Source: an uncultured Pirellulaceae bacterium
GTDB taxonomy: Bacteria > Planctomycetota > Planctomycetia > Pirellulales > Pirellulaceae
Assembly (NCBI GenBank): GCA_964411445.1
Contig: CAYPLE010000004.1
Span: 28,447 to 92,446 of the forward strand
DNA length: 64,000 bases
Direction: 5' to 3'
Shown: positions 1,050 through 26,584 of the stretch, one piece after another
How the letters are laid out: every line of letters starts with the position of its first letter
Numbering within the stretch: position 1 is the stretch's first letter
The notes under the pieces: model-generated
The model's input: only the letters and a program-made list of their open reading frames with translations
The model's database searches: none
Told to the model about the DNA's origin: nothing
Translations under genes and position numbers: made by a program

Positions 1050-4000
1050 ATGCTTCACGTACTCAGTTTGTTGCTTAGTCGGACATTCCCATACCACACC
1101 GCGCTTATTGCATTGCTCTTAGCCTGCAGCCATTCGTCTGGCGCAGAGTTGAACGCTTTGTTTTTAGGTGACAACGGGGCGCACCAGCCACAGCGGCGGT
1201 TCGCAGAGCTGGCTCCGAAACTTGAGGGAAAGGGAATTCGCCTGGTCTATACCGACGACCTCAGCAATCTGACGGGCGAAACCCTCGGCCAGTATGACGC
1301 ATTGGTTGTCTACGCCAATATCGACCGAATCGATGACGCGTATGCGAAGGCGATCGTGAATTATGTCAAGCAAGGCGGAGGCTTTGTACCGCTGCACTGT
1401 GCATCTTTCTGCTTTCGAAACCAACCTGAATTGGTCGCCCTCATTGGCGCTCAGTTCCAACGCCACGGAACGGGCGTCTTCCAGCCAATTCCCTCGGGCG
1501 AGAATCATCCGATTATGGAAGGCTTTGGCGGATTCCGCAGTTGGGACGAAACCTACGTACACACGCTGCACAATGAGGAGAACCGAACCGTTCTAGAATA
1601 TCGCGTTGATGAAGAAGGCCGAGAACCGTGGACATGGGTGAAGCCCTTTGGTGCCGGCCGCGTCTTCTATACCGCTTCCGGTCACGATTCTCGCACTTGG
1701 AACCAACCCGGCTTTCAAAACCTCGTCGAGCGTGGCATCCGCTGGGCGGCCGGAAAAGATCCCGCCGCGGCCGGTGAGTACTTGGATGAGAAACTCTTCG
1801 ACGCTCCACCAATGACAGCAAAGCGCACGGATATCGCACAACTGCAGTACATCGACGTTGGCCCAAAGATCCCGAACTACACCCCAAGCCGCCAGTGGGG
1901 CACTCAGGGTGATCCGAAGACGCTCATGCAAGAACCACTTGCCGCGGAGGAATCCATCAAGCACTTTGTTACACCCAAGGGATTCCAGGTTCAACGTTAC
2001 GCCGACGAGCGAGATTTTGACTCCAAGCCAATCGCCATGACTTGGGACGAGCGGGGCCGCCTGTGGTTGTGTGAAACACTGGATTATCCCAATGAACTGG
2101 GAAAGAACCGCGATCGTATCCGCATCTGTGAAGACACCGATGGGGACGCGGTAGCAGACAAATTCACCGTCTTTGCCGAAGGATTGAGTATTCCGACCGC
2201 GATTGTCATCGTTCGTGGCGGAGCAATCGTCCAAAACGGAACCGACACAATCTTCCTGCAGGACACCGATGGCGATGATGTGGCCGATGAAACCACGACT
2301 CTCATTACCGGCTGGGCATTGGGAGACACCCACGGTGGCGTGAGCAATTTTCGCTATGGCTTAGACAACTGGATCTGGGCCATGCAAGGCTACAACAACA
2401 GTCGCCCTGAATACGATGGCAAAATCGCGCAGCGTTTTCGGCAGGGATTCTGGCGTTTCAAGTTGTCACACGAGACGCCGCCCCGCGTCACCGACTTGGA
2501 GTTTGTTCGTTCAAGCAACAATAACACTTGGGGACTAGGCATCAGCGAAGAAGGCTTGATCTTTGGTTCAACCGCCAACGGAAACCCCAGCATGTTTGTG
2601 CCAATTCCGAATCGCTACTACGAAAGCGTGCGCGGTTGGTCTCCAAGAACACTGGGCAGCATCGCCGATTCAGCTCGCTTCGAACCTGTGACCGATGCAG
2701 TACGCCAAGTAGATCACCACGGGCGATACACAGCAGGAGCTGGTCACGCACTCTACACCGCCAGGGCATTCCCTCAGCAATGGTGGAACAGCACCGCATT
2801 TGTGTGCGGGCCAACCGGGCACCTTGTCGGGACGTTTGTATTGCGCCGCGATGGGACAGATTACACATCGTCAAGCCCACTGAATCTACTGGCAAGCGAC
2901 GATGAGTGGAGCGCGCCCATTATGGCCGAGGTCGGTCCCGACGGAGCAGTCTGGGTTCTTGACTGGTACAACTACATTGTCCAGCACAATCCTACTCCGA
3001 ACGGGTTCAAGACCGGTAAAGGTGCTGCCTACGAGAGTGACCTACGCGACAAGCGGCGGGGGCGGATTTATCGCGTCCTGCCGGATGACACCACCAGACT
3101 GCATGCCTATGACAGCCTTGCCGATGCCAACAACGCGCAACTAGTTGATGCGCTTCGCCATCCGTCCATGCGATGGAGATTACACGCCCAACGGCTTCTT
3201 ATTGAACGAGCAGCAACCGATTCTGCCGAACAGCTACTTGCACTGATCGGTGACACGAGCGTTGATGCAATTGGATTGAACGTTGGCGCTATTCACGCAT
3301 TACACACTCTGTCAGGCCTGGGATGGATCGACGACGAGCAGATTCAAGCGAATCGGAGACTCAGCAGTGCGCTTTCACGAGCCCTCGAGCACGAGTCCGC
3401 TGGCGTCCGTCGAGCGGCAATATCGGTACTCCCACAAAGCGCCGCGGGACTCGAAATCCTGCTTCGTCATGACGAACTGCTGAGCGATTCCGACGCCCAA
3501 GTTCGCTTGCAAGCGATTCTTTCGTTGGCTGACATGCCAGAGTCGGACTCGGCCGCGCATTTGATTGTATCGCTGGCCTACCAAACACTGGACGACGTGA
3601 CAGTCGACGCACTCACAGCGGCGGCAGCCGCCCACTCAACTCCTTTTCTTCGGGCTGTAGCCCAAAGCTCGCCGGCAACCGTTGCCGTCGAACAAATCAC
3701 CTCGCGTGTCGCTGAACACACAGCCCGAGGTCGCCCTAACGCTGACCAACTGCAAAAAGTCCTGGCGTCGCTCGCTGGAGCCGATTCCAAATTGGCAATC
3801 ACTATCCTTGATGGACTCACCGCCGGCTTTCCGAACGACTTTGCAATCGCAGAGAACAAACTGCTGCATCACTCACTGCTCAAGGCGTTCCATTCCAGCG
3901 AAGGACCAATGCAGGTGAAACTATTGCGATTGGCTGGTCGAATCGGCAACCGCTCGCTGGATTCTGAAGCAGAAGCAATCGTCCAGTCGTTGATTGAAAC

Positions 4001-5447
4001 ACTTTCGGATACGGAGGCGACGGAAGAAGTGCGATTGAATGCGGCAGCGGATCTGATAGGCTTCCGTGCCAAAGACCCTGACGCTGCGAGGGAAATTCTC
4101 GACACCATTTCCCCTCAGACACCGCCCGATCTGGCGGCTTCACTTATCAGTATCATTCGCCGAAGTGCGGCGGAAGAAGTCGGAGAGTTGTTGGTTGAAA
4201 CGTTGGTTGACTTTTCGCCTTCGATAAAGGCTAACGCCATCACTGCCGTACTCAGCAAACCAGCTTGGGCGGGAGCACTACTCAATTCTGCCGAGTCACA
4301 GCAATTTGACTTGAGCGAACTGTCCTTGGAACAAAAGCAAGCGCTGCGTGAATTGCCCAGCGAACGCCTAAGGTCTAAGGCGGAAATGCTCCTTGCCAGA
4401 GACGGAGGCTTACCCGATGCAGACCGTGAGAAGGTCCTGCAATCGTTGCTACCAATCACCAAGCGCCGCGGTGACTCCGACGCAGGCTTGCTTGTCTTCA
4501 AAAAGGCCTGCGCTAATTGCCACCAGTACGGCGATCTCGGGCAGAAGATCGGCCCGAACTTGACCGGAATGGCAGTCCATCCCAAAGACGAACTGCTGAC
4601 TCACATTATTGATCCATCGCGTAGCGTCGAAGGAAACTTTCGCATGTACAAAGTACTCACTGTCGACGGCGTGGTCGTGAACGGGATGCTTGCTGGCGAA
4701 TCGAAGACGTCGATAACCATCGTGGATGCTCAAGCAAAAGAGATCGATGTCCAACGGGAAGACATCGAACAGTTGGTAGCATCCCGAAAGAGCGTCATGC
4801 CAGAAGGCTTTGAAAAACAGCTCAGCGAACAGGAACTCACCAACCTGCTCGAATTCTTGACTGACACAGGCCCATACGTCCCTCTGCCTCTTGACGATAT
4901 TGCAACGGCCATCAGCACCAAGGGATTGTTCAGCAACGGCGATAGCGGACCAGACAGGATGATTTTTGCCGACTGGGCCCCCAAGATGGTCGGTGACGTC
5001 CCGTTCTTGCTTACCGATCCAGAGGGCAAATCGAAAAAGAACATCATCCTCTTGAACGGACCTTTCGGACCGCTACCGCCCCAAATGCCCAAGAGCGTTG
5101 CGATCAATATTGGCGGATCCGTGAAAGCAATCCACATGCTTTCCGGAGTCGGCGGTTGGAGCCATCCTTACAGTCGCGAGAAGACGATCTCGATGATTGT
5201 TCGCCTGCGGTACTCCGACGGAAAAGTCGAGGATCACGAATTGCGCAATGCGATCCACTTTGCAGACTACATTCGACGAGTTGATGTTCCTGGCAGTGAA
5301 TTTGCATTCGCTCTCGGCAACCAACAAATCCGCTATCTCAGTGTCGCTCCCAAACGCGAGACTTCAATTGATGCCGTCGAATTCGTAAAGGGCTCCGACG
5401 ACACCGCTCCGATTATCATGGCCGTGACAGTCGAGCGCAACGACTAG
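1050..5447 (+). CDS. PVC-type heme-binding CxxCH membrane-bound dehydrogenase-like protein with N-terminal ThuA-like domain
   Basis: Signal peptide; ThuA-like region (GGGFVPLHCAS...GRVFYTASGH); sorbosone-dehydrogenase-type propeller (WDERGRLW...DTDGD...DTHGG...GPDGAVWVLDWYN); HEAT-like helical region; heme motif CANCH followed by IGPNLTG and 'I.DPSRSVE'. Confidence 0.9.
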   Translation: MLHVLSLLLSRTFPYHTALIALLLACSHSSGAELNALFLGDNGAHQPQRRFAELAPKLEGKGIRLVYTDDLSNLTGETLGQYDALVVYANIDRIDDAYAKAIVNYVKQGGGFVPLHCASFCFRNQPELVALIGAQFQRHGTGVFQPIPSGENHPIMEGFGGFRSWDETYVHTLHNEENRTVLEYRVDEEGREPWTWVKPFGAGRVFYTASGHDSRTWNQPGFQNLVERGIRWAAGKDPAAAGEYLDEKLFDAPPMTAKRTDIAQLQYIDVGPKIPNYTPSRQWGTQGDPKTLMQEPLAAEESIKHFVTPKGFQVQRYADERDFDSKPIAMTWDERGRLWLCETLDYPNELGKNRDRIRICEDTDGDAVADKFTVFAEGLSIPTAIVIVRGGAIVQNGTDTIFLQDTDGDDVADETTTLITGWALGDTHGGVSNFRYGLDNWIWAMQGYNNSRPEYDGKIAQRFRQGFWRFKLSHETPPRVTDLEFVRSSNNNTWGLGISEEGLIFGSTANGNPSMFVPIPNRYYESVRGWSPRTLGSIADSARFEPVTDAVRQVDHHGRYTAGAGHALYTARAFPQQWWNSTAFVCGPTGHLVGTFVLRRDGTDYTSSSPLNLLASDDEWSAPIMAEVGPDGAVWVLDWYNYIVQHNPTPNGFKTGKGAAYESDLRDKRRGRIYRVLPDDTTRLHAYDSLADANNAQLVDALRHPSMRWRLHAQRLLIERAATDSAEQLLALIGDTSVDAIGLNVGAIHALHTLSGLGWIDDEQIQANRRLSSALSRALEHESAGVRRAAISVLPQSAAGLEILLRHDELLSDSDAQVRLQAILSLADMPESDSAAHLIVSLAYQTLDDVTVDALTAAAAAHSTPFLRAVAQSSPATVAVEQITSRVAEHTARGRPNADQLQKVLASLAGADSKLAITILDGLTAGFPNDFAIAENKLLHHSLLKAFHSSEGPMQVKLLRLAGRIGNRSLDSEAEAIVQSLIETLSDTEATEEVRLNAAADLIGFRAKDPDAAREILDTISPQTPPDLAASLISIIRRSAAEEVGELLVETLVDFSPSIKANAITAVLSKPAWAGALLNSAESQQFDLSELSLEQKQALRELPSERLRSKAEMLLARDGGLPDADREKVLQSLLPITKRRGDSDAGLLVFKKACANCHQYGDLGQKIGPNLTGMAVHPKDELLTHIIDPSRSVEGNFRMYKVLTVDGVVVNGMLAGESKTSITIVDAQAKEIDVQREDIEQLVASRKSVMPEGFEKQLSEQELTNLLEFLTDTGPYVPLPLDDIATAISTKGLFSNGDSGPDRMIFADWAPKMVGDVPFLLTDPEGKSKKNIILLNGPFGPLPPQMPKSVAINIGGSVKAIHMLSGVGGWSHPYSREKTISMIVRLRYSDGKVEDHELRNAIHFADYIRRVDVPGSEFAFALGNQQIRYLSVAPKRETSIDAVEFVKGSDDTAPIIMAVTVERND

Positions 5448-5487
5448 CAGCGGAACTACCTGAAGCCGCTTTCGGATCATGGCCGCG

Positions 5488-8400
5488 CTATGAGCGCGTT
5501 GCTAACGAAGCCCGAAGCAAATTGGCGAGTCGCGACACCTGCGTCTTGGCAAGCATGTTTGCATGAGCACCGGGAACTTCGAGCACTGTCAGTTCGTTAT
5601 CGGCAAAATACTCACTCCAACCAGCAGTAGCATCGCCGCCGCTTCCTCCAGACGCACGTATTTGTGCTCGGTAAAGCGTTGCTGGTCCGAGTGACGCCTG
5701 CGGACAGTAGTCAACGAGGGCTTGCATATTGCTCGCCGCAACTCGGCCATAGTCGGCATCCAAGTCGATGATTCGGCGGATTTTCTCGTGCAGTGAAATC
5801 AAGCCCATTCGATGCAAAACCGCTAGGCGACCAGCGCGAATGCGTTCTTGCACGTACGGTAGCCACTCACGCCATGGAAGCGTTGACAGGTACTTGCCGT
5901 GAAAGGCAAGGCTCTGCAGAGTCGAAGCAGGGAGCGGCACCCCCGGCGTGGCGTCAATCATCGACAGTGAGACGGAACAACCAGCTCGCCATAGTTGCTG
6001 GGCCATTTCATAGGCTAGAACGCCTCCGAAGGAAAACCCGGCAATATGATAGGTGCCTGTCGGCTGAGCACTCAACAGTCTTGCAACCTGTTGTTCAGCA
6101 AGCTGCTCGAAAGAGCACGGCGAATCGTCATCGGGCAGAAGCCCAATTGGCTCCAGCCCGAAAACGTTACAGTCCTTTTCCAGTGCTGCGGCAAGGTCAC
6201 GGAAATTCAAGAAGTGCCCATCAATACCTGGCAAGCAGTAAATATTGGGCTTTGGCACTCTTTCACCATTGCTCGGTGAGCTTGCGAGCCGAATAACGCC
6301 CGTCGTAGCTTCAGCACTTGATTCACTGGGACGCACAGCACGAACAAACTGCTGCAATGTAGGATTTGCGACCAGAATGGACATCGAAACTTTGATATCC
6401 AGTGAAACCCTAAGTCGAGCGAACATGATTGCTGCCGCCAAAGAGTTGCCGCCACAGTCAAAAAAATTGCTGTTTGCAACAAGTGCGTCTTGACGGAGCA
6501 CCGTTCTCCAAATTGCTGAGACTGAAGCCGTCAACGGATCACTTGTACGAGTGGCGGGTTCTTGCGGAGAGACCGCAGTTTCCACCGGAGGAGCCGTGCA
6601 CAAGTGCTGATTCAATAGCCGTTGGCGGTCAATTTTTCCATTGACAGTCTTTGGCAGCGTTTCGCAAACAACAATTTGCGCCGGAACCATGTACTCCGGC
6701 AAGGCATTCATCATCTCCTGTCGCAGATTCCTACCAAGCGTTTCTGCGGCTGTCGCACCTTGCGAAAGTGATTTTGCCTGCACGAACGCAATCAAGTGTG
6801 TGGCATGGTATTGCTTATCTGTGACAACTGCGGCTTCCCGGATTTGCTCCTGATTGAGCAACCACGCTTCGACTTCGCCTGGCTCGACACGGTTTCCACG
6901 TACCTTCACCTGGTCGTCGTTCCTGGACACGAACTCCAGTTGGTCATCCCAATTGATAAAACACACGTCTCCAGAACGGTACCACCGCTGGCTTTCGAAG
7001 CCATCCAACTTGCGATCTACAAATTTTTCATTCGCCTCACGATGTCCACCTAAATAGCCTTTGGCAATGCAGGCTTGACCAATCCATAGCTCGCCTTGAA
7101 CACCTTGAGGCACCGGCACTCCGCAATCGTTGACGACAGCCAACTCGGCGTTCTGAATTGGGCGCCCGATTGGCGGCAACGATGGCCAATTGCGTGGTGA
7201 ATCAGGAAGAGAATAGGATGTCACTACGTGCGATTCGGTCGGACCATACTGATTGATCAATCGGCATTGTGAGTTGGCATCGAAGAAACGCTTCACAGAT
7301 TCCGAAATCACCAGTCGTTCCCCCGCGGTGATGACTTCCCGCAAATGGGACTTGGCGCCGCGTTGATCTGCAATGTCACACAGCCCCTTCAAAGCGACGA
7401 AAGGCAAGAACACTCGTTCGATGCGCTCTTGAACAATCGTATCCCAGAGGGCATTCAGATCGCGGTGCGTTGCCTGATCAACCAAATGAAGGGTCCCGCC
7501 GCCGGCGAGTGTTGTCAGAATTTCTTGGAACGACACATCGAACCCAAGCGAAGCGAACTGAAGCGTTCGCGTTTGGGCCCAATTTGAATTCTCAGCAAGT
7601 TGCCAATCTACCAAGTTTTCGATGACTCCGATGGGCATTTCCACGCCCTTTGGAATGCCCGTCGAACCTGATGTGAAAAGGACATAGATTAGATCGCTGG
7701 CGAGGTGTTCATGGATCATCGGCACCGGCAACGTGCGCCCAAATGCATCTGCAACGTCGATTTCGCGCACGCCTTGGATCTGACAAGGCGTATTGACGAG
7801 CACGCTGGTCACGTTCGCACATTCAACGATTTGTCGCTTGCGTTCCGAGGGCAAGACGGGGTCAATTGGCACACAAACCCCACCAATCTGAATCGTCCCC
7901 AGCACGGCAGCCAGCATCTCTGGAGAACGCGTCAAGTGGAGGCCCACCAAATCGCCAGCCTCGACGCCTGCTGCCTCAAGCTCGCCCGAGACGCAGTCCG
8001 CAGCAGCCCACAGCTCTTTGTAGTCGTAATCCCGTCCAGCAAAACAGACTGCTGCTTGCTCGCTGTGACGAGTTGCAATAGCTTTGATCCGCCGAACCAA
8101 CGAAGGCTGGTTGGTTTGGCTCGAGACCGGCAGATCACTATGGCAAGCGTCCCAAGCAGCGGGCTGCCGTTCTAGCCCAATCTCGGTCGCCAGCACGCCA
8201 GGATCACCGATTAGCAGATCAAGTACGGTTTGAAAATGCCTTGCAAATTGTGTGATGCGCGCTTCTGCAAATTGCGATGCATCATACTCCAATTCAATCC
8301 GAATCTGATCAATTGCCTGTGAAGCGGCCACCAGCAGGTCAAACTTCGCCGTACCGGTATGTAAATGCTTTGGCGTAACCTGCGATGCACCAAAGGTTGG

Positions 8401-11400
8401 AGGCGTCTGCTCATCTTCGAGGACAAACAGAACGTTGAAGAGATCTTGCTGCTTTGCTCCTGCGGCGTCGCATGCAGACTTCATACGTTCGTATGAAAAC
8501 TCTTGGTGCGACAGAGCCTCAACGGTCGCCTGATGCACCAAATCACAGTATTCCTCAATGGTCGTGGAGGGGCTCAACTGAGTGCGTATTGGCAGCACGC
8601 CAATGAAGTAGCCGATTGTCGCCTCAATTTCGGCTCGGTCGCGTGTTGAGACCGCGGTGCCAACAACAATGTCATCCTGGTTGCTGTAACGGTGCAAGAG
8701 GATCTTGAGCACGCTCAACAGCAGCACAAAAGGCGTCGTTTGCTGCTCAGTTGCTCTCTTCCGCAACTTCTCCAGCCGAGTACCATCGATGACGAAGTCG
8801 AACACCCTGCCGACGCTCGCTAAGGGAACGTCTTGCGAAAAGTCGCTTGGAAGCGTGACTGACGCGGGCATCTTGTCGAGCTTTCTCAGCCAGTACTCCT
8901 CGCAAGCAATCTGGTGCGCTGTCCCACCTTCGGAAACTTCGCGCGACTGACCAAGTGAGTAGTCGAGATACTGCATCGGAGGAATAGCAAGCTGGCATTC
9001 ACGACCTTCAGTGTAAGCTGCATAGTACTCCGACAGCTCGCGATTGAAGATACCGATAGAGTGTCCATCAACGGCAATATGGTGAAACACCAAGACCAGC
9101 AGTGCTTCTTCGTCGTCACCGACAAACAACGCGGCCCTGAACGGATTCTCACTACTCAGTTCAAACGGTTGTCGAACAAATTTCTGTACTGCGGACTGCT
9201 TAGCAAGTGCTTCGCCTGCCCCGTTCTGCAGATGCCTTACCGTCAACACGCCTTCCACAGACGGCTGAACGTGCTGCAAGAGCTCACCGCTGCCACTGGA
9301 TGCAAATCGATATTGTGTACGCAGTACTTCATGCCGCGCGATAATGCTGTCGATCGCAAACGTTAGTGCTGCTGAATCGATCTCGCCGTGAACAGCAAAC
9401 CCAAGTGGCACGTTGTAGCGTGAACCGTGGTGGTCAATCTGGTTCACCACCCACATTTGCTGCTGTTGATAGGAAAGCGGCGCACTCGTCGGCCTCGCCT
9501 CTACGCTTGCTACCCCACCGCTGTCGTTGGCGCCTGACGCTTTTTCGCATGCATTGGAAAGCCAATCTGCGATCCAACTTAGCGGACGATTTCTATCCAA
9601 CAATTGCTGGTAGGGCAACTGTGCACCAAACGCCTGCCGAATACGAGCAATTAGCGTCAGTGCCGTCAGAGAAGTACCCCCGACGCAATAAAATGTATCA
9701 TTCAGGTCAACCGTGCTCGTGTTCAACAATTCAGCCAGCGTTTTGCTGAGCCATTGATGATATTCGGATTCGCCAAGCAGATCGTTAGCATGCAACACGC
9801 CCGCAGTTTTCCGACGAGACGGCAGTGGAAGCTGCTTGTAATCCACTTTACCATTGGGTGTCAGTGGCCAAGCATTCAGAGCGATGATCTCTGAGGGTAC
9901 CATATACGCTGGCAACCGCTTCGATAGTTGCCGGACCAATTCGCCGACATCCAAATTGCCTTCGGCCGATTCGCCTGTGTTTTCCTCGGTCCGACGCACA
10001 TAGGCAATCAGTCGATCGCCCGCGTCACCGGAATCGATGGTTAGGACCGCGTCTGAAACACCAGGTTGCTTCGCGAGTTCGCTTTCGATTTCTCCTAGAC
10101 CGATGCGATAGCCACGTATCTTGACTTGACGATCGCGACGGCCCAAGAACTCTAAAACGCCGTCTTCTGTGTAGCGACACAGATCACCTGTCTTATACAG
10201 CAGCCCGGAGTCTTCGAAAGGATTGTCGACGAATTGTTCGGCTGTGCGATCGGGTTGATTGATGTACCCCAACGCCACCCCGACTCCAGCTATACACAGC
10301 TCTCCAGCCTCGCCACGGGGCGTCTGGCACATTGATTCATCGACTACGTAACATCGCTGGTTTAGCAGAGGACGCCCATAGGGAATGCTCTTCCAAGTCG
10401 CTTCAACAGAATCGATCTCATGGTAGACACTCCAAATAGAAGCCTCGGTGCTACCTCCCAGGGACCAAATCTCTGCATCTGGCAGGAACTCGCGGATCCG
10501 ACCAGGCAGGCTAAGTGGGATCCAATCACCACTCAGCATGACCGTCCGTAAACTTGAAAGCAAATGTGCGTTTTCGCAAGCTGTAACCAGGATGTCCATC
10601 AACGCCGGAACAGTGTTCCAAACGGTCACTTGATGTGCCTGGACGAGTTGTTGCCAGGCGAGCGGATTACGCGATTGCTCACGATTCGGCAAGACAACCG
10701 TTCCGCCAGCCGCGAACATGCCAAAGATGTCGTACACCGACAGATCAAACCCGAGGGCCGATAGACATAGCGTCGCGTCGGCGGCGGTGATTGAAAAGCG
10801 ATGGTTGACGTCCTGAATGGTATTGGCTGGTCCGCGATGGCCGAGCATCACCCCCTTGGGCTGTCCGGTTGACCCAGAGGTAAACAACACGTATGCCAGG
10901 CTATCCGCATCGGGAACGGGCAACTCCACTTCGCTATTGAGAGCACCTTCAACAGCGGTGATGACCTCCGGATTCACGAGCTCAACGGTGTGAACAAATT
11001 CGCACGGTAGACTGCGGCCGAGACAATAACGTGCCTGAGCGGTTTCTGCAAAATAGGCCAGTCTGTCTGCTGGAAGCTGCGTATCCAGCGGAAGGTAGGC
11101 CGCGCCAGCTTTGAGTACGGCAACGATGGACAGAATTGATTGCGCAGTGTGATCGGCGACGACGCAAACGACTTCGCCACGACGGACACCGTGTTTGACC
11201 AAGTGCCGCGCGATGATATCGGAACGCAAATCTAGTTCCGCGTAGCTAAGCGACTCCTTGCCACAGACAACGGCAGTCGAATTTGGGGTTCGTTGTGCAG
11301 AGCGTCGAACAAAGCAAGCTAACGTTGGATCGTCTTTCCAATCAAAATCGGTCGCGTTCCATTCTGGATCGGGCAGGGTGGTGGCAGACTTACTTTCTGC

Positions 11401-20967: not shown

Positions 20968-21168
20968 CGGAAAATTTGAAGGGCGGCTGTTCCGGCAGAG
21001 CCTCCCTGCGAGGGCGAATCAGAATTTGAGAGGCGCACGTCACGTCAGCTTTTGATCACGGATGCCCGAGCGTTAAACTCTGATTGCCCGGCCTCGCTGC
21101 CAGGATCGAACCCCATCCTTCTATCACTGTCTCAAATATCTGCCCGACATACTGGGTTGGAAGTCATC

Positions 21169-21636
21169 ATGAAACGAAAACGCTGGCTGATCCCAGTCGC
21201 TTTGCTGCTGACCGCTTACTTAGGAGTTCAAGTCATGAATGCGACGTCCAAGCCGCTGCTCGCCCTGGGAGTAACGAACGGCAAGTTGGCAGCTTGCCCC
21301 GATAAGCCGAATTGTGTTTCTTCGCAAGCGACCGCGAATGAACACAAGATTGCTCCGCTTCAGTTCGAAGGCGAAGCTAATGCGGCCTGGACGGCGCTGA
21401 AAAGCGTCGTTGCAGCCTATCCGAGAGCCAAGGTTGTCAGCGAGCAGGACAACTACCTGCGCTGTGAATTCCGAACCTGGATCATGCGTTACGTCGACGA
21501 CGTAGAATTTTTGATGGACGCGGACCAATCCGTCATTCACGTTCGCTCCGCGTCGCGCATTGGCTATTCCGACTTAGGCGCCAATCGAAAACGCATCGAA
21601 CAACTTCGCACCGCCTTTGACAGCACGCTGGACTGA
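21169..21636 (+). CDS. DUF1499 domain-containing protein
   Basis: N-terminal TM, 'LAACPDKPNCVSSQ', 'YVDDVEF' and 'HVRSASRIGYSDLGANRKRIEQLR'. ATG at 21169. Confidence 0.9.
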   Translation: MKRKRWLIPVALLLTAYLGVQVMNATSKPLLALGVTNGKLAACPDKPNCVSSQATANEHKIAPLQFEGEANAAWTALKSVVAAYPRAKVVSEQDNYLRCEFRTWIMRYVDDVEFLMDADQSVIHVRSASRIGYSDLGANRKRIEQLRTAFDSTLD

Positions 21637-21757
21637 TGACAACTTCGAGTGGCCTGAATCCGTTGACGACACTCCACAGAGGGGCTACCATCTACACCCC
21701 ATGTCGATGACGTAAGGTGATCAGAACGAAAGCGCTCAAGAGGATTCAGACTGATGT
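21623..21757. repeat. 135-bp direct repeat, copy 1
   Basis: Matches 23469-23603 by manual alignment: 127 bp identical, one mismatch (A21750 vs G23596), then 7 more matches. Includes the last 14 nt of the DUF1499 gene. Confidence 0.97.
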
Positions 21758-21962
21758 TAAGAAGCTGAAGGTCCCTACTCCCCGGCCTGGAGCGGAATCA
21801 ACCTGACGCTCCAGCTCAGTCCAATTGCTGGATACGCTGGAGGTGAAGAAGCACCATTGTATTAAGATCCTGTTCATTTCTCGGTCAGTTGAGTGCATTG
21901 CTGCGAGAACGGCTTCAAATACGGATATCTTCAGCTTCATCTACACCGGTGCGGTGCAGAAC

Positions 21963-22859
21963 ATGACCAATTCTCGCTCAAAGCTGGATCCTACCACCGT
22001 GGCCAACAGGAAACTTCGCTTCGGCTTCACTCTACTTGAGTTGCTGACCGTCATTGCCATCATTGGCATCTTGCTAGCGCTCCTTTCGATGGGCATCCAA
22101 GCTGTTCGAGGTGCTTCGAGAAAGATGAGTTGTTCAAACAACCTTCGGCAAATTGGGCTCGGGCTAACAAACTACGATGCAGTTCATGGTTGTTTCCCCG
22201 CAGGGGCGGGGCCAATGGGACATAGTCCCTTGGTGTCGATACTCCCCTACGTAGAGGAGTCGAATCTGTATTTACGACTCGATCTGACTAAGGACGTTAC
22301 CGAGAACTTCGCAGTGATGGAGTCACCGATTTCGACATTTCGTTGTCCGTCGATCGTTGATGATAGAATCTACCGTACCGACTATATGCTCAATCGAGGT
22401 GTGACGTTGGGGGATACTCGGAACGGCCCTTGGTTCTTCCAAGAACCGACATTTCCCCGGCCCGGTAACTATTCGAACGGTGCTACAGAAACCGCTCTAT
22501 TTGCAGAAGGAAGCCCCAACACGACTAAGTATGGACGGCTTTACGAGCTCCCGCGAAGATCAATAGATACAACCCAGGACTCAGATCGTTTCGTGAGTGA
22601 TTGCCTGGCAGTCTCGACGGGCCGATTTTCGCAGCTAGAAAACGGCGAGTGTTGGTATGGGGCAGGAACGATGAACTATTACCATGCATTGCAGCCAAAC
22701 AGCCGCTCATGCTCCAACGGTACGTCCATCCAAACGAGCCTATTTACAGGCAACAGCCTTCACGGTTCTGGAATAAATGTGCTCTACGCAGATGCACACG
22801 TAGAGTTTGTCGCCAACAAAATTGATCTCAAGATTTGGCAAAAATCCGGTAAGCGATAG
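21963..22859 (+). CDS. DUF1559 domain protein with prepilin-type N-terminal cleavage/methylation motif
   Basis: 'GFTLLELLTVIAIIGILLALL', 'CSNNLRQIGLGL.NY', 'FRCPS', and C-terminal 'HGSGINVLYADAHV' (H-X9-DG motif with DA in place of DG). ATG at 21963. Confidence 0.9.
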   Translation: MTNSRSKLDPTTVANRKLRFGFTLLELLTVIAIIGILLALLSMGIQAVRGASRKMSCSNNLRQIGLGLTNYDAVHGCFPAGAGPMGHSPLVSILPYVEESNLYLRLDLTKDVTENFAVMESPISTFRCPSIVDDRIYRTDYMLNRGVTLGDTRNGPWFFQEPTFPRPGNYSNGATETALFAEGSPNTTKYGRLYELPRRSIDTTQDSDRFVSDCLAVSTGRFSQLENGECWYGAGTMNYYHALQPNSRSCSNGTSIQTSLFTGNSLHGSGINVLYADAHVEFVANKIDLKIWQKSGKR

Positions 22860-22890
22860 ATCAGTGACTCTTATCGGTGCGGGCAGTTGA

Positions 22891-23367
22891 TTAAGGCAGA
22901 ACACTGCAGTTAACCTTGGCAAAAATTCCATGTCTGTCTTTGAGCACGAGCAGAGCATTGTCGTGGCTTAGATTCGGCAGATCGGCGGTAAAAGAGATTT
23001 CGAGAATCCCCCGTCTGAGCCGGATCGCGTTTGTAGAACCGCTCTGTAAATTGAATGCCTCATCGGACTTCCAAAAGTTGAAGGTAACCCTCTTTGGTAG
23101 ACTTATACCCTCCGGCCTCTCCACGAAAACGACTAGGTCGTGCTGCTCGCCTGCTTGGAAAACATAAGGCTCGTCAGCCTCCACGCCATCGATCATTATT
23201 TTGAGTACTTCGCCTTCAAATTCCGGGGTCTTCTCCGCTGAAAAGATCGGTGGCGGTTGCGGGGCCGACTTCCAAAACGGAAGAAACGCGATGATCCCCG
23301 CAATCAGAATGAAGACGATCGAAGAGAGAATCAAACGCTTGGCGGATGCAACCATGGCCAAAATCAA
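22891..23367 (-). CDS. Hypothetical protein with N-terminal membrane anchor
   Basis: 158-aa ORF with one hydrophobic segment, a Pro-rich linker and a beta-rich soluble domain. It fills the space between the DUF1559 gene and repeat copy 2. No family recognised. Confidence 0.6.
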   Translation of the reverse strand: MILAMVASAKRLILSSIVFILIAGIIAFLPFWKSAPQPPPIFSAEKTPEFEGEVLKIMIDGVEADEPYVFQAGEQHDLVVFVERPEGISLPKRVTFNFWKSDEAFNLQSGSTNAIRLRRGILEISFTADLPNLSHDNALLVLKDRHGIFAKVNCSVLP

Positions 23368-23468
23368 TCTGACAATGTGGTGTAACTGTTGAAGGCTTCG
23401 GTTCTTTCGGAGGCGGGATGCCGCTATCTCTTGGCCGTGAACGTCGAACTCGCTTTAAAGATTGGCCT

Positions 23469-23603
23469 GCACGCTGGACTGATGACAACTTCGAGTGGCC
23501 TGAATCCGTTGACGACACTCCACAGAGGGGCTACCATCTACACCCCATGTCGATGACGTAAGGTGATCAGAACGAAAGCGCTCAAGAGGATTCAGGCTGA
23601 TGT
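23469..23603. repeat. 135-bp direct repeat, copy 2
   Basis: Offset 1846 bp from copy 1. Contains the ATG (23600) of the downstream gene and an internal inverted repeat GCCTGAATCC (23498-23507) / GGATTCAGGC (23588-23597). Confidence 0.97.
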
Positions 23604-23971
23604 CCAAACCACGAAAAGGTCTTGTTGTTCTCGCCGGAGTTTCCTCGATCCTCTTCGCGGTCATCATGCTCGCGATGGCGGGACTCATGTTTGCTCTGGA
23701 GAGCCCGGTGGGATTGTGCATCCTGTTCGGTTCATTCTCAATTCTTCCCATACTGATCGCGGTCGCCTGCTTTGCTCCACGAATGCGATCCGTGGCACTT
23801 CGGATTCTCGGCGGGATTGCCTGCCTCGTTTGTTGCCTGGTTCTTATTCAGAGCATCGTTGCTCGCGTGAACGGCGAGCCAACAGAAGTGAGGCGATTGG
23901 GATTCGTGGGCGTGGCCATGGTCGGTTCGGGAATTATGGCTTGGAAAGGAAAATGGCCAGGAGCCGAATAG
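23600..23971 (+). CDS. Hypothetical membrane protein (about 4 TM)
   Basis: 123 aa, almost entirely hydrophobic helices. No family recognised. Confidence 0.65.
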   Translation: MSKPRKGLVVLAGVSSILFAVIMLAMAGLMFALESPVGLCILFGSFSILPILIAVACFAPRMRSVALRILGGIACLVCCLVLIQSIVARVNGEPTEVRRLGFVGVAMVGSGIMAWKGKWPGAE

Positions 23972-24318
23972 GAGTCGCCACCGACTCCAAATTGAGCACT
24001 ATTGCATTCTAATTCGTCGACACAGCGGCGTTTGGTTATTTCGGTCCACAACAATTCGAACATCGGAAACTTTTTGACACGCAGCAAGCATGGTGGACCT
24101 GTCTTCGTCAGAGCCGTTTGTTAATTTCTCGCTGTCTGAGCGAAGCAAGCGGCTTCGCTGCCGAGCCTGATTCGCTAAGCTCCCTTTGCTAGTTACCTTT
24201 CTTAATTGGATGACGCCCCTGTCCACTTTTGGGGTGTATCACGATGCCCCCAGAGCACTAGATTGATGCAGTGCTTGAGGAGTTTTTGCGTAGTCGTCCC
24301 ACAGAATGCGGCCGTTCC

Positions 24319-24812
24319 TTATTGGATTCGTTTCAGGTGCATATAGCCGCAACCCCCGATCGTTGCATCGTCGAAACCGTTGGGGGCAGGCTCATTGGCG
24401 CTCGTTGCCTCAATGATCTCAACCTCGTCTGTACGAAGAAAACGCAGCAGGCCATTTCTTGGACCTGCCCCGCCCATTGAAACAAGGTCTTCACTCCCTG
24501 CAATTTGGAACGGAATAGACCCGTCCGCGTTTGAATTCATGATTTGGAATTCAACAGGTTCCGAGCCCTGGCCCTTTGGCCCTTTGGCCATTCAGCCATC
24601 CCATCATTGCCAATCTTGACAGTGCATCCTTCGCGGTCCGTATCCTGTTCTCCATAAAGCGTCGCTTTGACAACCTCCCAGTTCCCGTAAATCGCCTCAC
24701 GATTCGGTATGAACTCCTCCATCTCAGGTTGTGGTGCGCTGGTTTCGAGTTTTGCGTTTCCTGAGCAGCCTGCCAAATAGAGCAGACAGATGCAGACAAA
24801 AATCCTTGCCAT
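24319..24812 (-). pseudogene. Frameshifted lipoprotein gene (resembles the planctomycete TIGR03067-type domain)
   Basis: GAGG RBS then ATG 24812, lipobox LAGC, 'GNWEVV'. ORFs 24537-24812 and 24319-24591 join into one 161-aa frame if one 8-bp unit at 24572-24587 is removed. The domain call is a loose resemblance. Confidence 0.75.
24572..24587. repeat. 8-bp tandem duplication (CCCTTTGG)x2 causing a frameshift
   Basis: Read directly: ccctgg-ccctttgg-ccctttgg-cc at 24566-24589. Confidence 0.9.
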
Positions 24813-24894
24813 AGTTATTTCCTCACTTAGTTGTCTTAAGGCTCAATTTCCCATAACCGCAACGTTCGCTTATTGGGCTTGCATCCCAAATTTG

Positions 24895-26232
24895 TTAGGA
24901 GCCGGTTGGGCTAATCTGCCAGACTCGAATTCTGCGGACAAGCGATGCGATGCCGTAGCCATACTCAATCGTGAGCACCAGAAAACCGGATTCTGTGGGG
25001 ACCACGTCAGCTATGGCTGTCGCTCCCTTCGTGTTATCCAAGTACCAGATTGGCTGTGGATTGCGAGGATCGTTGGAGATCAGCATCCGATCGCCCAGGG
25101 TGGACATGTGCTCCTCCAATGTCCCGTACTTGTGGTAGGACGAATAGAAAGTTGGATCCACTTGCATGCGTTCAACGAGCCTATCCAAGTCACCGGGTGC
25201 GGGTCCACCTCGAAAACGAAAAACGCGATTGCCTTGCTTCTGCGGAAAATAGTGACTTCGGAAAGGAGCATCGGCAATTGGATTAATACGGTGCTCGTCT
25301 ACGCTGTTGGATTTCGCAACCTTGGGGTGGAAGAGGGTCCTCAGTCTTGCGAAACTGATAACGCATGCATTCATTTCGTGATCCAGGCTGTGCGTTTTCA
25401 GGTTCACAGTCGCTCGACGGACAGTGAACTCGCCGTCTCCTTTACCGCGACTTGCATATACCAGGAATAGTTGGTCGTTTACCCACTCGAGACCGCCCAC
25501 CAGTCCGTCAACTTGGATGCGGATTTCCGGTGGGTTACTACTATCGGCGGCTAGCTTACTACGATCAATCAAACGCATTATTGTCTGGGGCTTAGTGAAT
25601 CTGTTGTTTCTTGGAATACCTTTCTTATTCAATACCGGTCGCTCACGCTCCAGAACAACCAGATGGTTTGACTCTTCCAAGAATTGCGTTCCCAAACCGT
25701 CACCATAGAACACCGGTAGCGACCATGTGACTTCCCAAGCAAGCCAATCCTTGGGTTCCGCCAAATAGTCCAATCGCCCATGGGCGCCGCCGGGAATGTG
25801 CAGGGAGCCAATTCTGCCTCCATTTGGGCTCTCTATCGGGAATGAAACCACAAATAAACCACCAGTTTGTGGGCATGTCCAGCACGACATAAAGCCAGTG
25901 TGCTCATAAACAACTTGATGCTTCTTGGTCTTTGTGTTCACTACAAATATTTTCTTGCCATCTCGCACCACGGCATGGCTACCGTCGAAGCTCAGTGCAG
26001 CATCCCAGAAATATGCCTCGTCGCGGTGTGACGCTTCCCACTCATACAGAGGCTCAGGCGCGGGAATCACCCGCTGCCCGACCACTTGCCTAGGAGTGCT
26101 AGTGGCACTTACAACAACCAGGAGTACCAACGCCCAATATATTGGACGACCAAGTAGTAGAGCTTCACGCAACATAGCTTTCCCTACAAGTCTCAAACGG
26201 AATGGTTCGGGCCTCGGATTGACGTCAGCCAA
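24895..26232 (-). CDS. Hypothetical exported protein, possible beta-propeller
   Basis: 445-aa ORF with an N-terminal hydrophobic segment and WD40-like strands ('ALSFDGSHAVV', 'GGLEWVND', terminal 'IRVWQI'). Start may be downstream (MLREALL). Confidence 0.65.
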   Translation of the reverse strand: MADVNPRPEPFRLRLVGKAMLREALLLGRPIYWALVLLVVVSATSTPRQVVGQRVIPAPEPLYEWEASHRDEAYFWDAALSFDGSHAVVRDGKKIFVVNTKTKKHQVVYEHTGFMSCWTCPQTGGLFVVSFPIESPNGGRIGSLHIPGGAHGRLDYLAEPKDWLAWEVTWSLPVFYGDGLGTQFLEESNHLVVLERERPVLNKKGIPRNNRFTKPQTIMRLIDRSKLAADSSNPPEIRIQVDGLVGGLEWVNDQLFLVYASRGKGDGEFTVRRATVNLKTHSLDHEMNACVISFARLRTLFHPKVAKSNSVDEHRINPIADAPFRSHYFPQKQGNRVFRFRGGPAPGDLDRLVERMQVDPTFYSSYHKYGTLEEHMSTLGDRMLISNDPRNPQPIWYLDNTKGATAIADVVPTESGFLVLTIEYGYGIASLVRRIRVWQISPTGS

Positions 26233-26584
26233 CGTGATTTACGATTCAAGATACATAGCTAAACGAAGGCCACGTGCCACGCCTGATCGTATAGCGTCTG
26301 AGCGTGCAATTGAGTGTCTCCGGGCCAAGACGTAATACGCAGTAAGAAGGGACGCCTATCCATTTCTCGGTGAATCGTCTTGAACAGGCAGAAGTTTTTA
26401 ACAAATCCTAGCGGCGAAGTCAAACAAATTGTTCTGGAATTTCGACGCAACACCCACTGCCCCCCAGAAGAGCGTTTTAACGGGGGAAGGGAAATTCGAA
26501 AGCAAATGCATTTGCGTCTATTCGCGTTGGCGATTCGCTGGGTCGTAACAACCCACCACATCTGTGCGACTTGCGCGAGTAGCG

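What the first reader, a model, noticed from the sequence alone, without database searches (positions are those of the whole stretch)
21623..23603. Two-gene cassette bracketed by near-perfect 135-bp direct repeats with no recombinase
Seen: 21623-21757 and 23469-23603 differ at one base. Between them lie 1711 bp holding a DUF1559 prepilin-type gene and a convergent orphan gene. Copy 1 contains the DUF1499 stop codon; copy 2 contains the ATG of the 123-aa membrane gene, while the equivalent ATG in copy 1 opens only MLRS-stop. Removing one repeat plus the insert (1846 bp) restores a simple DUF1499-spacer-membrane gene arrangement. No integrase or transposase is in the window. Inference: a recent Campbell-type integration of a small circle, or a recombination-excisable cassette. 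This could be one route by which planctomycetes shuffle their many DUF1559 genes.
Basis: partly seen in the sequence, partly recalled or inferred. Interest (0 to 1): 0.62.

Follow-up and report, generated by a model that had tools for sequence, protein, structure and literature searches.

The report
Repeat-flanked two-gene islet, no recombinase
A 1.7-kb piece of foreign-looking DNA with a pilin-like gene and its small membrane partner sits between two near-identical copies of one 135-base intergenic spacer in a marine planctomycete draft genome; this is a familiar footprint of gene gain, and it could not be checked against reads or sister strains.

Summary
Window 21623-21757 and 23469-23603 are 134/135 identical: 127 exact bases, one A/G mismatch, then 7 bases. 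Their edges are sharp, and the repeat occurs nowhere else in the genome or in the public collections searched. The repeat is the whole DUF1499-to-membrane-gene spacer and carries a sigma-70-like promoter match.

The 1711-bp insert has unusually low GC (0.4th percentile). It carries a DUF1559/H-X9-DG prepilin-like gene and a membrane-anchored Ig-like protein. The only detectable homologue of that protein also sits beside a DUF1559 gene of the same subfamily, so the cargo is a real gene pair.

The scaffold has no recombinase, no terminal inverted repeats, no attC-like fold and no tRNA.

New here: the first 23 nt of the insert are identical to part of a decayed tyrosine-integrase gene elsewhere in the genome.

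I found no sister genome or empty site. The assembly is metaSPAdes-like with k=55, so the repeat had to be resolved from reads.

Only 1 of 30 DUF1559 loci is bracketed this way, so a general shuffling route is not supported.

Verdict: probably a recent insertion with spacer duplication that host recombination could remove. It is a new member of a known kind, of modest interest.

The parts
21169..21636 (+). DUF1499 gene (155 aa from ATG 21169; longest ORF starts at 21052). Its last 11 nt and its stop codon lie inside repeat copy 1.
   Evidence: Pfam PF07386, E 7e-41, domain complete at residue 189 of 194; sequence.
21623..21757 (+). Repeat copy 1 (R1). It runs from 11 nt before the DUF1499 stop, through the 117-nt spacer, to ATGT.
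   Evidence: 134/135 identical to copy 2, and only two copies in the genome.
21663..21691 (+). Sigma-70-like promoter match TTGACG-17-TACCAT in R1, facing the DUF1559 gene.
   Evidence: This is a consensus match only: 3 sites were found against 1.7 expected.
21758..23468 (.). Insert Z, 1711 nt. GC is 50.6% against 54.5% for the genome. It has no terminal inverted repeats.
   Evidence: GC at the 0.44th percentile and tetranucleotide distance at the 92nd percentile; no inverted repeat at its ends; unique in the genome; no match in plasmids or phages.
21759..21781 (+). 23-nt patch AAGAAGCTGAAGGTCCCTACTCC, identical to part of the coding sequence of a decayed tyrosine-recombinase gene on scaffold C13 (47112-47134).
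   Evidence: There is no similarity on either side. The 23-mer is absent from 185,579 species genomes and from IMG/VR.
21963..22859 (+). DUF1559 / H-X9-DG prepilin-like gene (298 aa from ATG 21963; the ORF is open from 21825).
   Evidence: PF07596 E 1e-31 and PF07963; TIGR02532 and TIGR04294 above their cut-offs; closest relatives 46-51%; in-genome paralogues at most 32%.
22891..23367 (-). orphan158: N-terminal membrane helix plus an Ig-like beta-sandwich (154 aa from ATG 23355).
   Evidence: One distant homologue, P0125 (32%, E 1e-9), lies next to a DUF1559 gene that is 49% identical to ours. AlphaFold model pLDDT 78. PDB matches are only generic sandwich folds.
23469..23603 (+). Repeat copy 2 (R2). 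It ends with ATGT, the start of the 123-aa gene.
   Evidence: The homologues of the 123-aa gene all begin ATGTCC(A/C)AACCA, so the ATGT is native to that gene.
23509..23537 (+). The same promoter-like site in R2, 63 nt upstream of the memb123 ATG.
23600..23971 (+). memb123, a 123-aa multi-pass membrane protein with no known family.
   Evidence: Best homologues are 54-63% identical, and none is next to a DUF1499 gene.
23972..26560 (.). The rest of a low-GC accessory islet (lipo91, p445 and a 100-aa ORF), all without a family. Together with Z it forms a 4.8-kb stretch of 51.3% GC.
   Evidence: GC percentile 0.24 for 21758-26560; no Pfam family.

Best explanation
As assembled, a foreign 1711-bp module was inserted into the 117-nt spacer between the DUF1499 gene and the 123-aa membrane gene. 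The module is a DUF1559/H-X9-DG prepilin-like gene plus a small membrane-anchored Ig-like partner. The event left the whole spacer, plus 14 nt of the upstream gene end and 4 nt of the downstream gene start, duplicated on both sides.

The simplest process that gives this product is one crossover between the chromosomal spacer and a circular DNA of 1846 bp carrying a copy of that spacer (Campbell-type). Either the host's homologous recombination or a recombinase acting in trans could have done it.

Both outer genes stay intact. Each spacer copy carries the same promoter-like site, so the incoming DUF1559 gene and the resident membrane gene are both preceded by it.

The islet has no recombinase of its own. 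Host recombination between the 135-nt repeats can remove it. The single mismatch suggests a recent event, or later gene conversion between the copies.

Shown: the anatomy, the uniqueness of the repeat, the odd composition of the insert, the pairing of the two cargo genes, and the absence of a recombinase. Inferred: that insert and duplication arose together, the circular intermediate, the enzyme, and the excisability.
For: - The repeat is 134/135 identical with sharp edges. It has two copies in the genome and none in metagenome, genome, viral, plasmid or phage collections.
- The outer flank of each copy runs straight into an intact gene. The ATGT at the repeat's 3' end is native to the membrane gene.
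- The insert's GC is at the 0.44th percentile, and it lies at the edge of a 4.8-kb low-GC stretch of orphan genes next to DUF1499.
- The two cargo genes are also neighbours in an unrelated metagenome contig, so the insert is a functional module and not random DNA.
- The cargo DUF1559 gene is at most 32% identical to any paralogue, so the insert is not a local duplication.
- No inverted repeats, no attC-like fold (z = -0.05), no Rfam family and no tRNA.
- No tyrosine or serine recombinase and no rve transposase on the scaffold.
- The region has no N gaps.
Against: - No empty site, circle junction or sister strain could be examined.
- DUF1499 next to the membrane gene is seen in no other genome, so the 'ancestral' arrangement is an assumption.
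- A circle that already carries the spacer must itself come from such a locus, so Campbell integration explains spread but not first origin.
- The repeat matches the spacer almost exactly. An insertion model does not predict this; a model of promoter or spacer copying does.
- The 23-nt integrase-derived patch at the left junction is not explained by a simple crossover.
- The repeat (127 exact nt) is longer than the assembler's k of 55, so the order rests on read information I could not see.
Confidence: 0.4

Rival explanations
1. Only the spacer was copied. The DUF1559/orphan pair was already at this locus, and a 135-nt promoter-bearing segment was copied about 1.8 kb away by template switching or ectopic repair. 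It now stands in front of two unrelated genes (promoter reuse). In the version that fits best, the segment upstream of memb123 was copied to the end of DUF1499 together with 23 nt templated from the C13 integrase remnant.
For: - The repeat coincides almost exactly with a functional unit running from stop codon to start codon, and it contains a promoter-like site.
- The 23-nt patch is private to this genome and sits 1 nt from the repeat's end, as expected for a templated filler made in the same repair event.
- The ATGT at the boundary could be junction microhomology.
- Pairs of near-identical upstream regions before unrelated genes are common in prokaryotes (PMC3575422).
Against: - It needs a precise, in-frame junction 11 nt before the DUF1499 stop, or a junction exactly at the memb123 ATG.
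- There is no microhomology at the left junction.
- In copy 1 the repeat lies 206-341 nt upstream of the DUF1559 ATG, outside the window used to define mobile promoters.
- It does not use the insert's very low GC.
Confidence: 0.2
2. This is the decayed remnant of an integrase-borne integrative islet. The 135-nt repeats are attL and attR, an identity block that rebuilds the 3' end of DUF1499 and the upstream region of memb123. The element's own tyrosine integrase lay next to attL and has been deleted, leaving 23 nt.
For: - The 23 nt at the left edge are identical to the codons for KKLKVPTP in a tyrosine-recombinase remnant.
- That remnant lies at the left end of a 3474-bp segment flanked by exact 24-nt direct repeats on scaffold C13. 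So integrase-type islets do exist and decay in this genome.
- The identity block begins inside the 3' end of the upstream gene, as in classical islands.
- In relative G063 the memb123 homologue lies directly beside an integrase/IS91-like gene pair, inside a 7.3-kb segment flanked by 71-nt repeats.
Against: - Neither side of the 23-mer shows any integrase similarity in any frame. Two separate deletions would have to leave exactly this piece.
- There is no third, older repeat copy.
- 7.8% of random 1.7-kb segments share some 23-mer with another part of the genome, so the link is suggestive, not proven.
Confidence: 0.12
3. The assembled order is not what most cells carry. In a k=55 de Bruijn graph the 127-nt exact repeat is one shared edge. 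A chromosome with an empty site plus a free 1846-bp circle, a mixed population, or a tandem array would all give the same loop, which the assembler walks once.
For: - The assembly has 55-nt overlaps at 82 contig-end pairings and flanking many 100-N gaps, which marks a multi-k SPAdes-type assembly ending at k=55.
- The genome is a 206-scaffold draft that is 93% complete.
- The same assembly holds a perfect 2306-bp tandem duplication on C49, and another repeat-bracketed cassette sits at the very start of scaffold C25.
Against: - An assembler cannot invent the two junctions R-to-insert and insert-to-R. Both must exist in reads, so the insert is flanked by the repeat on both sides in some molecule.
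- The scaffold runs through both copies with no gap. Elsewhere this assembler broke the sequence or left Ns at unresolved repeats. That suggests read support for this path.
Confidence: 0.15

Closest known systems
Microcin H47 genomic island of Escherichia coli (PMC3191183)
   Same: A small island flanked by extensive direct repeats and carrying no integrase or excisionase of its own. Its mobility is thought to depend on functions supplied by the host genome.
   Different: - The H47 island is 13 kb and its repeats are imperfect.
- Its excision and integration were shown by experiment and occur without homologous recombination.
- Its attachment sites are widespread among strains.
- Here the insert is 1.7 kb, the repeats are near-perfect and private to one locus, and nothing was shown by experiment.
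Campbell-type single-crossover integration and RecA-dependent deletion between direct repeats (textbook recombination)
   Same: The product has the same form: one homology segment duplicated as direct repeats around the inserted DNA. Recombination between the repeats reverses it.
   Different: No circular partner, empty site or excision product was observed. The origin of a circle that already carries the host spacer is unexplained.
Genomic islands integrated by tyrosine recombinases at the 3' end of a gene, and their integrase-less derivatives such as cis-mobilizable elements (from my own knowledge)
   Same: The direct repeats start inside the 3' end of a conserved gene and rebuild it. The cargo has atypical composition. 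An integrase-derived fragment sits at the attL-side junction.
   Different: There is no integrase gene, only 23 nt of one. The target is not a tRNA. The identity block of 135 nt is at the long end of what is usual.
Putative mobile promoters / promoter reuse (Nijveen, Matus-Garcia and van Passel, PMC3575422)
   Same: A non-coding upstream segment of at least 50 nt and at least 80% identity precedes two unrelated genes in one genome, with no known mobile element attached.
   Different: The two copies are 1.8 kb apart and bracket a cassette. Copy 1 lies 206-341 nt upstream of the DUF1559 start codon, outside the -150 to -50 window of that definition.

Membership tests
Integron gene cassette (attC) | The recombination site folds as an imperfect palindrome (attC bottom-strand hairpin) | tested here: not met
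   The repeat folds no better than shuffles, z = -0.05. No inverted repeat lies in or around it.
Integron gene cassette (attC) | An integron integrase (tyrosine recombinase) and attI lie next to the array | tested here: not met
   PF00589 has no match on the 126-kb scaffold C4.
Transposon / IS / MITE | Terminal inverted repeats and a short target-site duplication | tested here: not met
   The insert has no inverted repeats at its ends. The duplication is 135 nt.
Transposon / IS / MITE | A transposase in the element, or multiple dispersed copies | tested here: not met
   No rve match anywhere in the genome. Insert and repeat are unique. The two ORFs are DUF1559 and an Ig-like orphan. Other transposase families were checked only through Pfam scans of 27 window ORFs.
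Integrase-borne genomic island | Direct repeats (attL/attR) flank the element and one overlaps the 3' end of the target gene | tested here: met
   Copy 1 begins 11 nt before the DUF1499 stop codon. Copy 2 is 134/135 identical.
Integrase-borne genomic island | An integrase gene lies inside the element | tested here: not met
   Only a 23-nt integrase-identical patch is present at 21759-21781. No frame of 21758-21962 matches PF00589.
Recombinase-less island with extensive direct repeats (MccH47-type) | Extensive direct repeats and no recombination genes in the island | tested here: met
Recombinase-less island with extensive direct repeats (MccH47-type) | Attachment sites are present in other strains or genomes | tested here: not met
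   A 24-mer from the repeat has no exact match in the metagenome, genome or viral collections. No close strain was available, so this test is weak.
Recombinase-less island with extensive direct repeats (MccH47-type) | Excision and integration are observed | not testable with these tools
Putative mobile promoter | At least 50 nt at 80% identity or more within -150 to -50 of two non-paralogous genes | tested here: inconclusive
   Met for memb123, where the repeat covers -131 to +4. For DUF1559 the repeat lies at -341 to -206 from ATG 21963, or at -203 to -68 if the upstream TTG at 21825 is the start.
Tandem or segmental duplication | The DNA between or within the repeats is a copy of local sequence | tested here: not met
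   The insert is unique in the genome and its genes have no paralogue above 32%.
Assembly loop artefact | The repeat is longer than the assembler's k, so the order depends on read support | tested here: inconclusive
   k = 55 inferred from contig-end overlaps, against an exact repeat of 127 nt. Reads were not available.

The most novel reading that the evidence does not exclude
The unit 'one spacer copy plus cargo' (1846 bp) is a recombinase-free mobile circle. It would use a copy of a host intergenic spacer as a portable homology anchor. It would enter and leave chromosomes of related strains through the host's general recombination, bringing a ready-made promoter for its cargo. With like cases noted elsewhere in this scan for PVC-group bacteria, this would be a recurrent way of adding small surface-protein modules, including DUF1559 genes, without any dedicated enzyme.
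Probability: 0.1. Interest if true: 0.6.

Novelty: new member of a known kind. Interest (0 to 1): 0.3.

Why it matters
Planctomycetes carry dozens of DUF1559 pilin-like genes each; this genome has 30 loci. How these genes come and go is not known. A verified repeat-flanked islet with no recombinase would give one concrete and testable way of gaining and losing such a gene together with its partner and a promoter. On the present evidence it is a single, private case in one draft genome, of a broadly familiar kind. Its value is as a candidate for read-level or strain-level checking, not as a new mechanism. One small by-product may help studies of the family's function: this DUF1559 subfamily travels with a membrane-anchored Ig-like partner in two unrelated contexts.

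Tried and rejected
- **Empty site in relatives.**
  - A DNA search of 40 relatives found only short paralogous pieces.
  - Protein searches across 49 genus genomes gave at best 52% identity for DUF1499, 63% for memb123 and 61% for the neighbouring sugar transferase. Synteny was not conserved (ORFs).
  - Exact-protein look-ups found nothing.
  - In the 5.8-billion-protein search the best memb123 hits were 61% and 54%, on contigs under 1 kb whose upstream DNA does not align with the repeat.
  - A metagenome scan with DUF1499 returned 58 loci, all at 54% identity or less and none with memb123 or this DUF1559 nearby.
- **Repeat elsewhere.** Exact 24-mer scans of metagenome, genome and viral collections found nothing. 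blastn against plasmids and phages found nothing.
- **k=127 artefact.** The exact run is 127 nt, which is the largest SPAdes k. I rejected this idea because contig-end overlaps show k = 55.
- **attC or structured RNA.** Rejected.
- **tRNA target.** There is no tRNA in the window.
- **End-joining capture of DNA.** Disfavoured, because no Ku gene was found in the 93%-complete assembly.
- **Homology beyond the repeat edges.** None found.
- **More integrase sequence next to the 23-nt patch.** None found in any frame.
- **Other DUF1559 loci bracketed by repeats.** None of the other 29, and none in the two closest orthologue contigs.
- **Function of the orphan.** The fold search gave only generic Ig-like, ML or UNC119-like sandwiches with TM about 0.45.
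Full report
**Observation.** The reported repeat is real.
- Window 21623-21757 and 23469-23603 are 135 nt each and lie 1846 nt apart start to start, with 1711 nt between them.
- They differ at one base, A at 21750 against G at 23596. That gives a 127-nt exact run, the mismatch, then CTGATGT.
- The 60 nt outside each boundary align no better than shuffled sequence (p = 0.22-0.60), so the edges are sharp and not decaying.
- Copy 1 starts 11 nt before the DUF1499 stop codon (TGA 21634-21636). Copy 2 ends with ATGT, the start of the 123-aa gene (ATG 23600). In copy 1 the same ATG opens only MLRS-stop.
- The repeat is therefore the whole 117-nt spacer plus 14 nt of the upstream gene end and 4 nt of the downstream gene start.
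- blastn with a 9-nt word finds exactly two copies in the 6.24-Mb assembly.

**The genes.**
- Pfam confirms DUF1499 (E 7e-41) and DUF1559 plus the N-terminal methylation motif.
- NCBIfam adds the prepilin cleavage domain and the H-X9-DG C-terminal domain, both above their cut-offs. The likely start of the DUF1559 gene is ATG 21963 (298 aa).
- The convergent 158-aa ORF is a real gene. A full HMMER scan of 1.8 billion representatives found one homologue, P0125 (32% identity, E 1e-9, same length and layout).
- On its 1.8-kb contig that homologue lies immediately upstream, on the same strand, of a DUF1559 gene that is 49% identical to ours. The two cargo genes are therefore a conserved pair, although their relative orientation differs here.
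- The AlphaFold model has mean pLDDT 78. It shows an N-terminal membrane helix and an Ig-like beta-sandwich. PDB matches are only generic sandwich folds.
- The closest relatives of the cargo DUF1559 are 46-51% identical. Paralogues within the genome reach at most 32%, so this is not a local duplication.

**Composition and context.**
- The insert has 50.6% GC against 54.5% for the genome. That is the 0.44th percentile of 1711-nt windows. Its tetranucleotide distance is at the 92nd percentile.
- The insert forms the left edge of a 4.8-kb stretch (21758-26560) with 51.3% GC, the 0.24th percentile. This stretch is made of genes without families. Within it the 123-aa gene itself has ordinary GC.
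- On the left lie DUF1499 and a polysaccharide operon. On the right lie typical planctomycete genes: a DUF1552/DUF1592 pair, a cadherin-dockerin protein and a sulfatase.
- No tyrosine recombinase, serine recombinase or rve transposase is present on the 126-kb scaffold.
- The window has no tRNA. The region has no Rfam family.
- The repeat does not fold better than shuffles (z = -0.05).
- Each repeat copy carries a sigma-70-like TTGACG-17-TACCAT match. This is weak evidence on its own.

**The assembly.**
- Contig ends overlap by exactly 55 nt in 82 pairings, and dozens of 100-N gaps are flanked by 55-nt duplicates. This marks a SPAdes-type multi-k assembly ending at k = 55. That the exact run is 127 nt long, the largest SPAdes k, is therefore a coincidence.
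- The repeat is longer than k, so the graph holds a loop and the order DUF1499-R-insert-R-memb123 was chosen from read information.
- The two inner junctions cannot be invented by the assembler. The insert is truly flanked by the repeat on both sides in some molecule.
- An empty chromosome plus a free 1846-bp circle, a mixed population, or a tandem array would give the same graph.
- The scaffold has no N gap near the region.

**Search for an empty site.** None could be found, because no close relative is available.
- Across 49 genomes of the genus the best identities are 52% for DUF1499 and 63% for memb123. The neighbours of these genes differ in every genome inspected.
- The 5.8-billion-protein search and a metagenome scan found nothing closer.
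- None of 69 DUF1499 loci has memb123 or this DUF1559 gene beside it, and no memb123 locus has DUF1499.
- The 'restored' arrangement is thus arithmetic, not an observed ancestral state.
- One directional clue exists. All memb123 homologues begin ATGTCC(A/C)AACCA, so the ATGT that closes the repeat belongs natively to memb123.

**A new detail at the left junction.**
- Window 21759-21781 starts 1 nt after copy 1 ends. It is 23/23 identical to scaffold C13:47112-47134.
- There the 23 nt encode KKLKVPTP inside a 5'-truncated, frameshifted tyrosine-recombinase remnant.
- That remnant sits at the left end of a 3474-bp segment flanked by exact 24-nt direct repeats.
- There is no similarity on either side of the 23-mer.
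- The 23-mer is absent from 185,579 species genomes and from IMG/VR.
- As background, 7.8% of random 1.7-kb segments share some 23-mer with another place in the genome. The match itself is therefore not extraordinary. Its position at the junction is.
- It may be a templated filler from a repair event, the last trace of an integrase that once lay next to attL, or a coincidence. I leave it unexplained.

**How general is this?**
- Of 30 DUF1559-like loci in this genome, only this one is bracketed by direct repeats of at least 30 nt within 6 kb.
- The two closest orthologue contigs show no such repeats.
- The genome does hold other local repeat structures: a 118-nt repeat pair around an HNH-endonuclease cassette at the start of scaffold C25, a perfect 2306-bp tandem duplication on C49, and two tandem paralogues with a 277-nt identical 5' end on C60.
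- Notes from this scan describe similar recombinase-less, repeat-flanked insertions in other PVC-group genomes. These are unchecked leads, not evidence.

**Interpretation.**
- The most economical reading (about 0.4) is an insertion of the two-gene module into the spacer that duplicated the spacer. This is the product of a single crossover with a circle carrying a spacer copy. The islet now has no recombinase and can be lost by host recombination between the 135-nt repeats.
- The rivals are copying of the spacer alone by template switching, which is promoter reuse (0.2; PMC3575422), a decayed integrase-borne islet (0.12), and an assembly or population mixture (0.15).
- End-joining capture is disfavoured because no Ku gene was found.
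- The closest documented system is the microcin H47 island: small, flanked by extensive repeats, without its own recombinase (PMC3191183). That island's mobility was shown by experiment and its attachment sites are widespread. Neither holds here.

**Verdict.** This is a new member of a known kind, of modest interest. The decisive test is read-level or strain-level evidence.

Noticed in passing
own genome, scaffold C13:46940-50437 (outside the window): A 3474-bp segment is flanked by exact 24-nt direct repeats (GCTTTCCGAATGCTCGACCTGAGC). It starts with a 5'-truncated, frameshifted tyrosine-recombinase remnant, followed by four small ORFs. It looks like a decayed integrative islet. 23 nt of its integrase are identical to the left edge of the insert studied here.
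   Followed up: partly
own genome, scaffold C25:85-1972 (outside the window): A second repeat-bracketed cassette. 118-nt direct repeats with 3 mismatches surround 1652 nt holding a 162-aa ORF and an HNH endonuclease (PF01844). The scaffold begins only 84 nt upstream. Those 84 nt are partly an inverted copy of the insert's end.
   Followed up: partly
own genome, scaffold C49:34319-38933: A perfect (100%) tandem duplication of 2306 bp covers the 3' end of a glycosyltransferase gene, a Ser/Thr-kinase-like gene and the 5' part of a third gene. It is either a very recent duplication or an assembly loop walked twice.
   Followed up: no
own genome, scaffold C60:13303-15888: Two tandem paralogous genes share a 277-nt stretch at 99.6% identity at their 5' ends, while the rest has diverged. 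This looks like gene conversion.
   Followed up: no
own genome, C4:106956-107115 and at least 10 other scaffolds: A dispersed repeat family of about 160 nt at 90-98% identity, possibly a MITE or a REP-like element. It is unrelated to the repeat studied here.
   Followed up: no
L016 (G063:C30:6000-18000), 1378-8761: In the closest genome that has a memb123 homologue (63%), that gene lies directly downstream of a tyrosine integrase and an IS91-like gene pair. All of this sits inside a 7.3-kb segment flanked by 71-nt direct repeats at 79% identity. memb123 may itself be island cargo.
   Followed up: partly
window 21758-26560: A 4.8-kb stretch of 51.3% GC, the 0.24th percentile for the genome. It is made of genes without families: the cargo pair, a 91-aa lipoprotein-like ORF, a 445-aa ORF and a 100-aa ORF. 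It sits between DUF1499 and a DUF1552/DUF1592 gene pair and looks like a small accessory islet.
   Followed up: partly
L035 (Logan contig SRR26831616_81707), 588-1762: The only homologue of the 158-aa orphan sits next to a DUF1559 gene of the same subfamily, overlapping it by 1 nt. The two probably form a functional pair: a pilin-like protein with a membrane-anchored Ig-like partner.
   Followed up: partly
whole assembly: Exact 55-nt duplicates flank most 100-N gaps, and 82 contig-end pairings overlap by 55 nt. These are a scaffolding signature and should not be read as biological repeats in other windows of this genome.
   Followed up: yes
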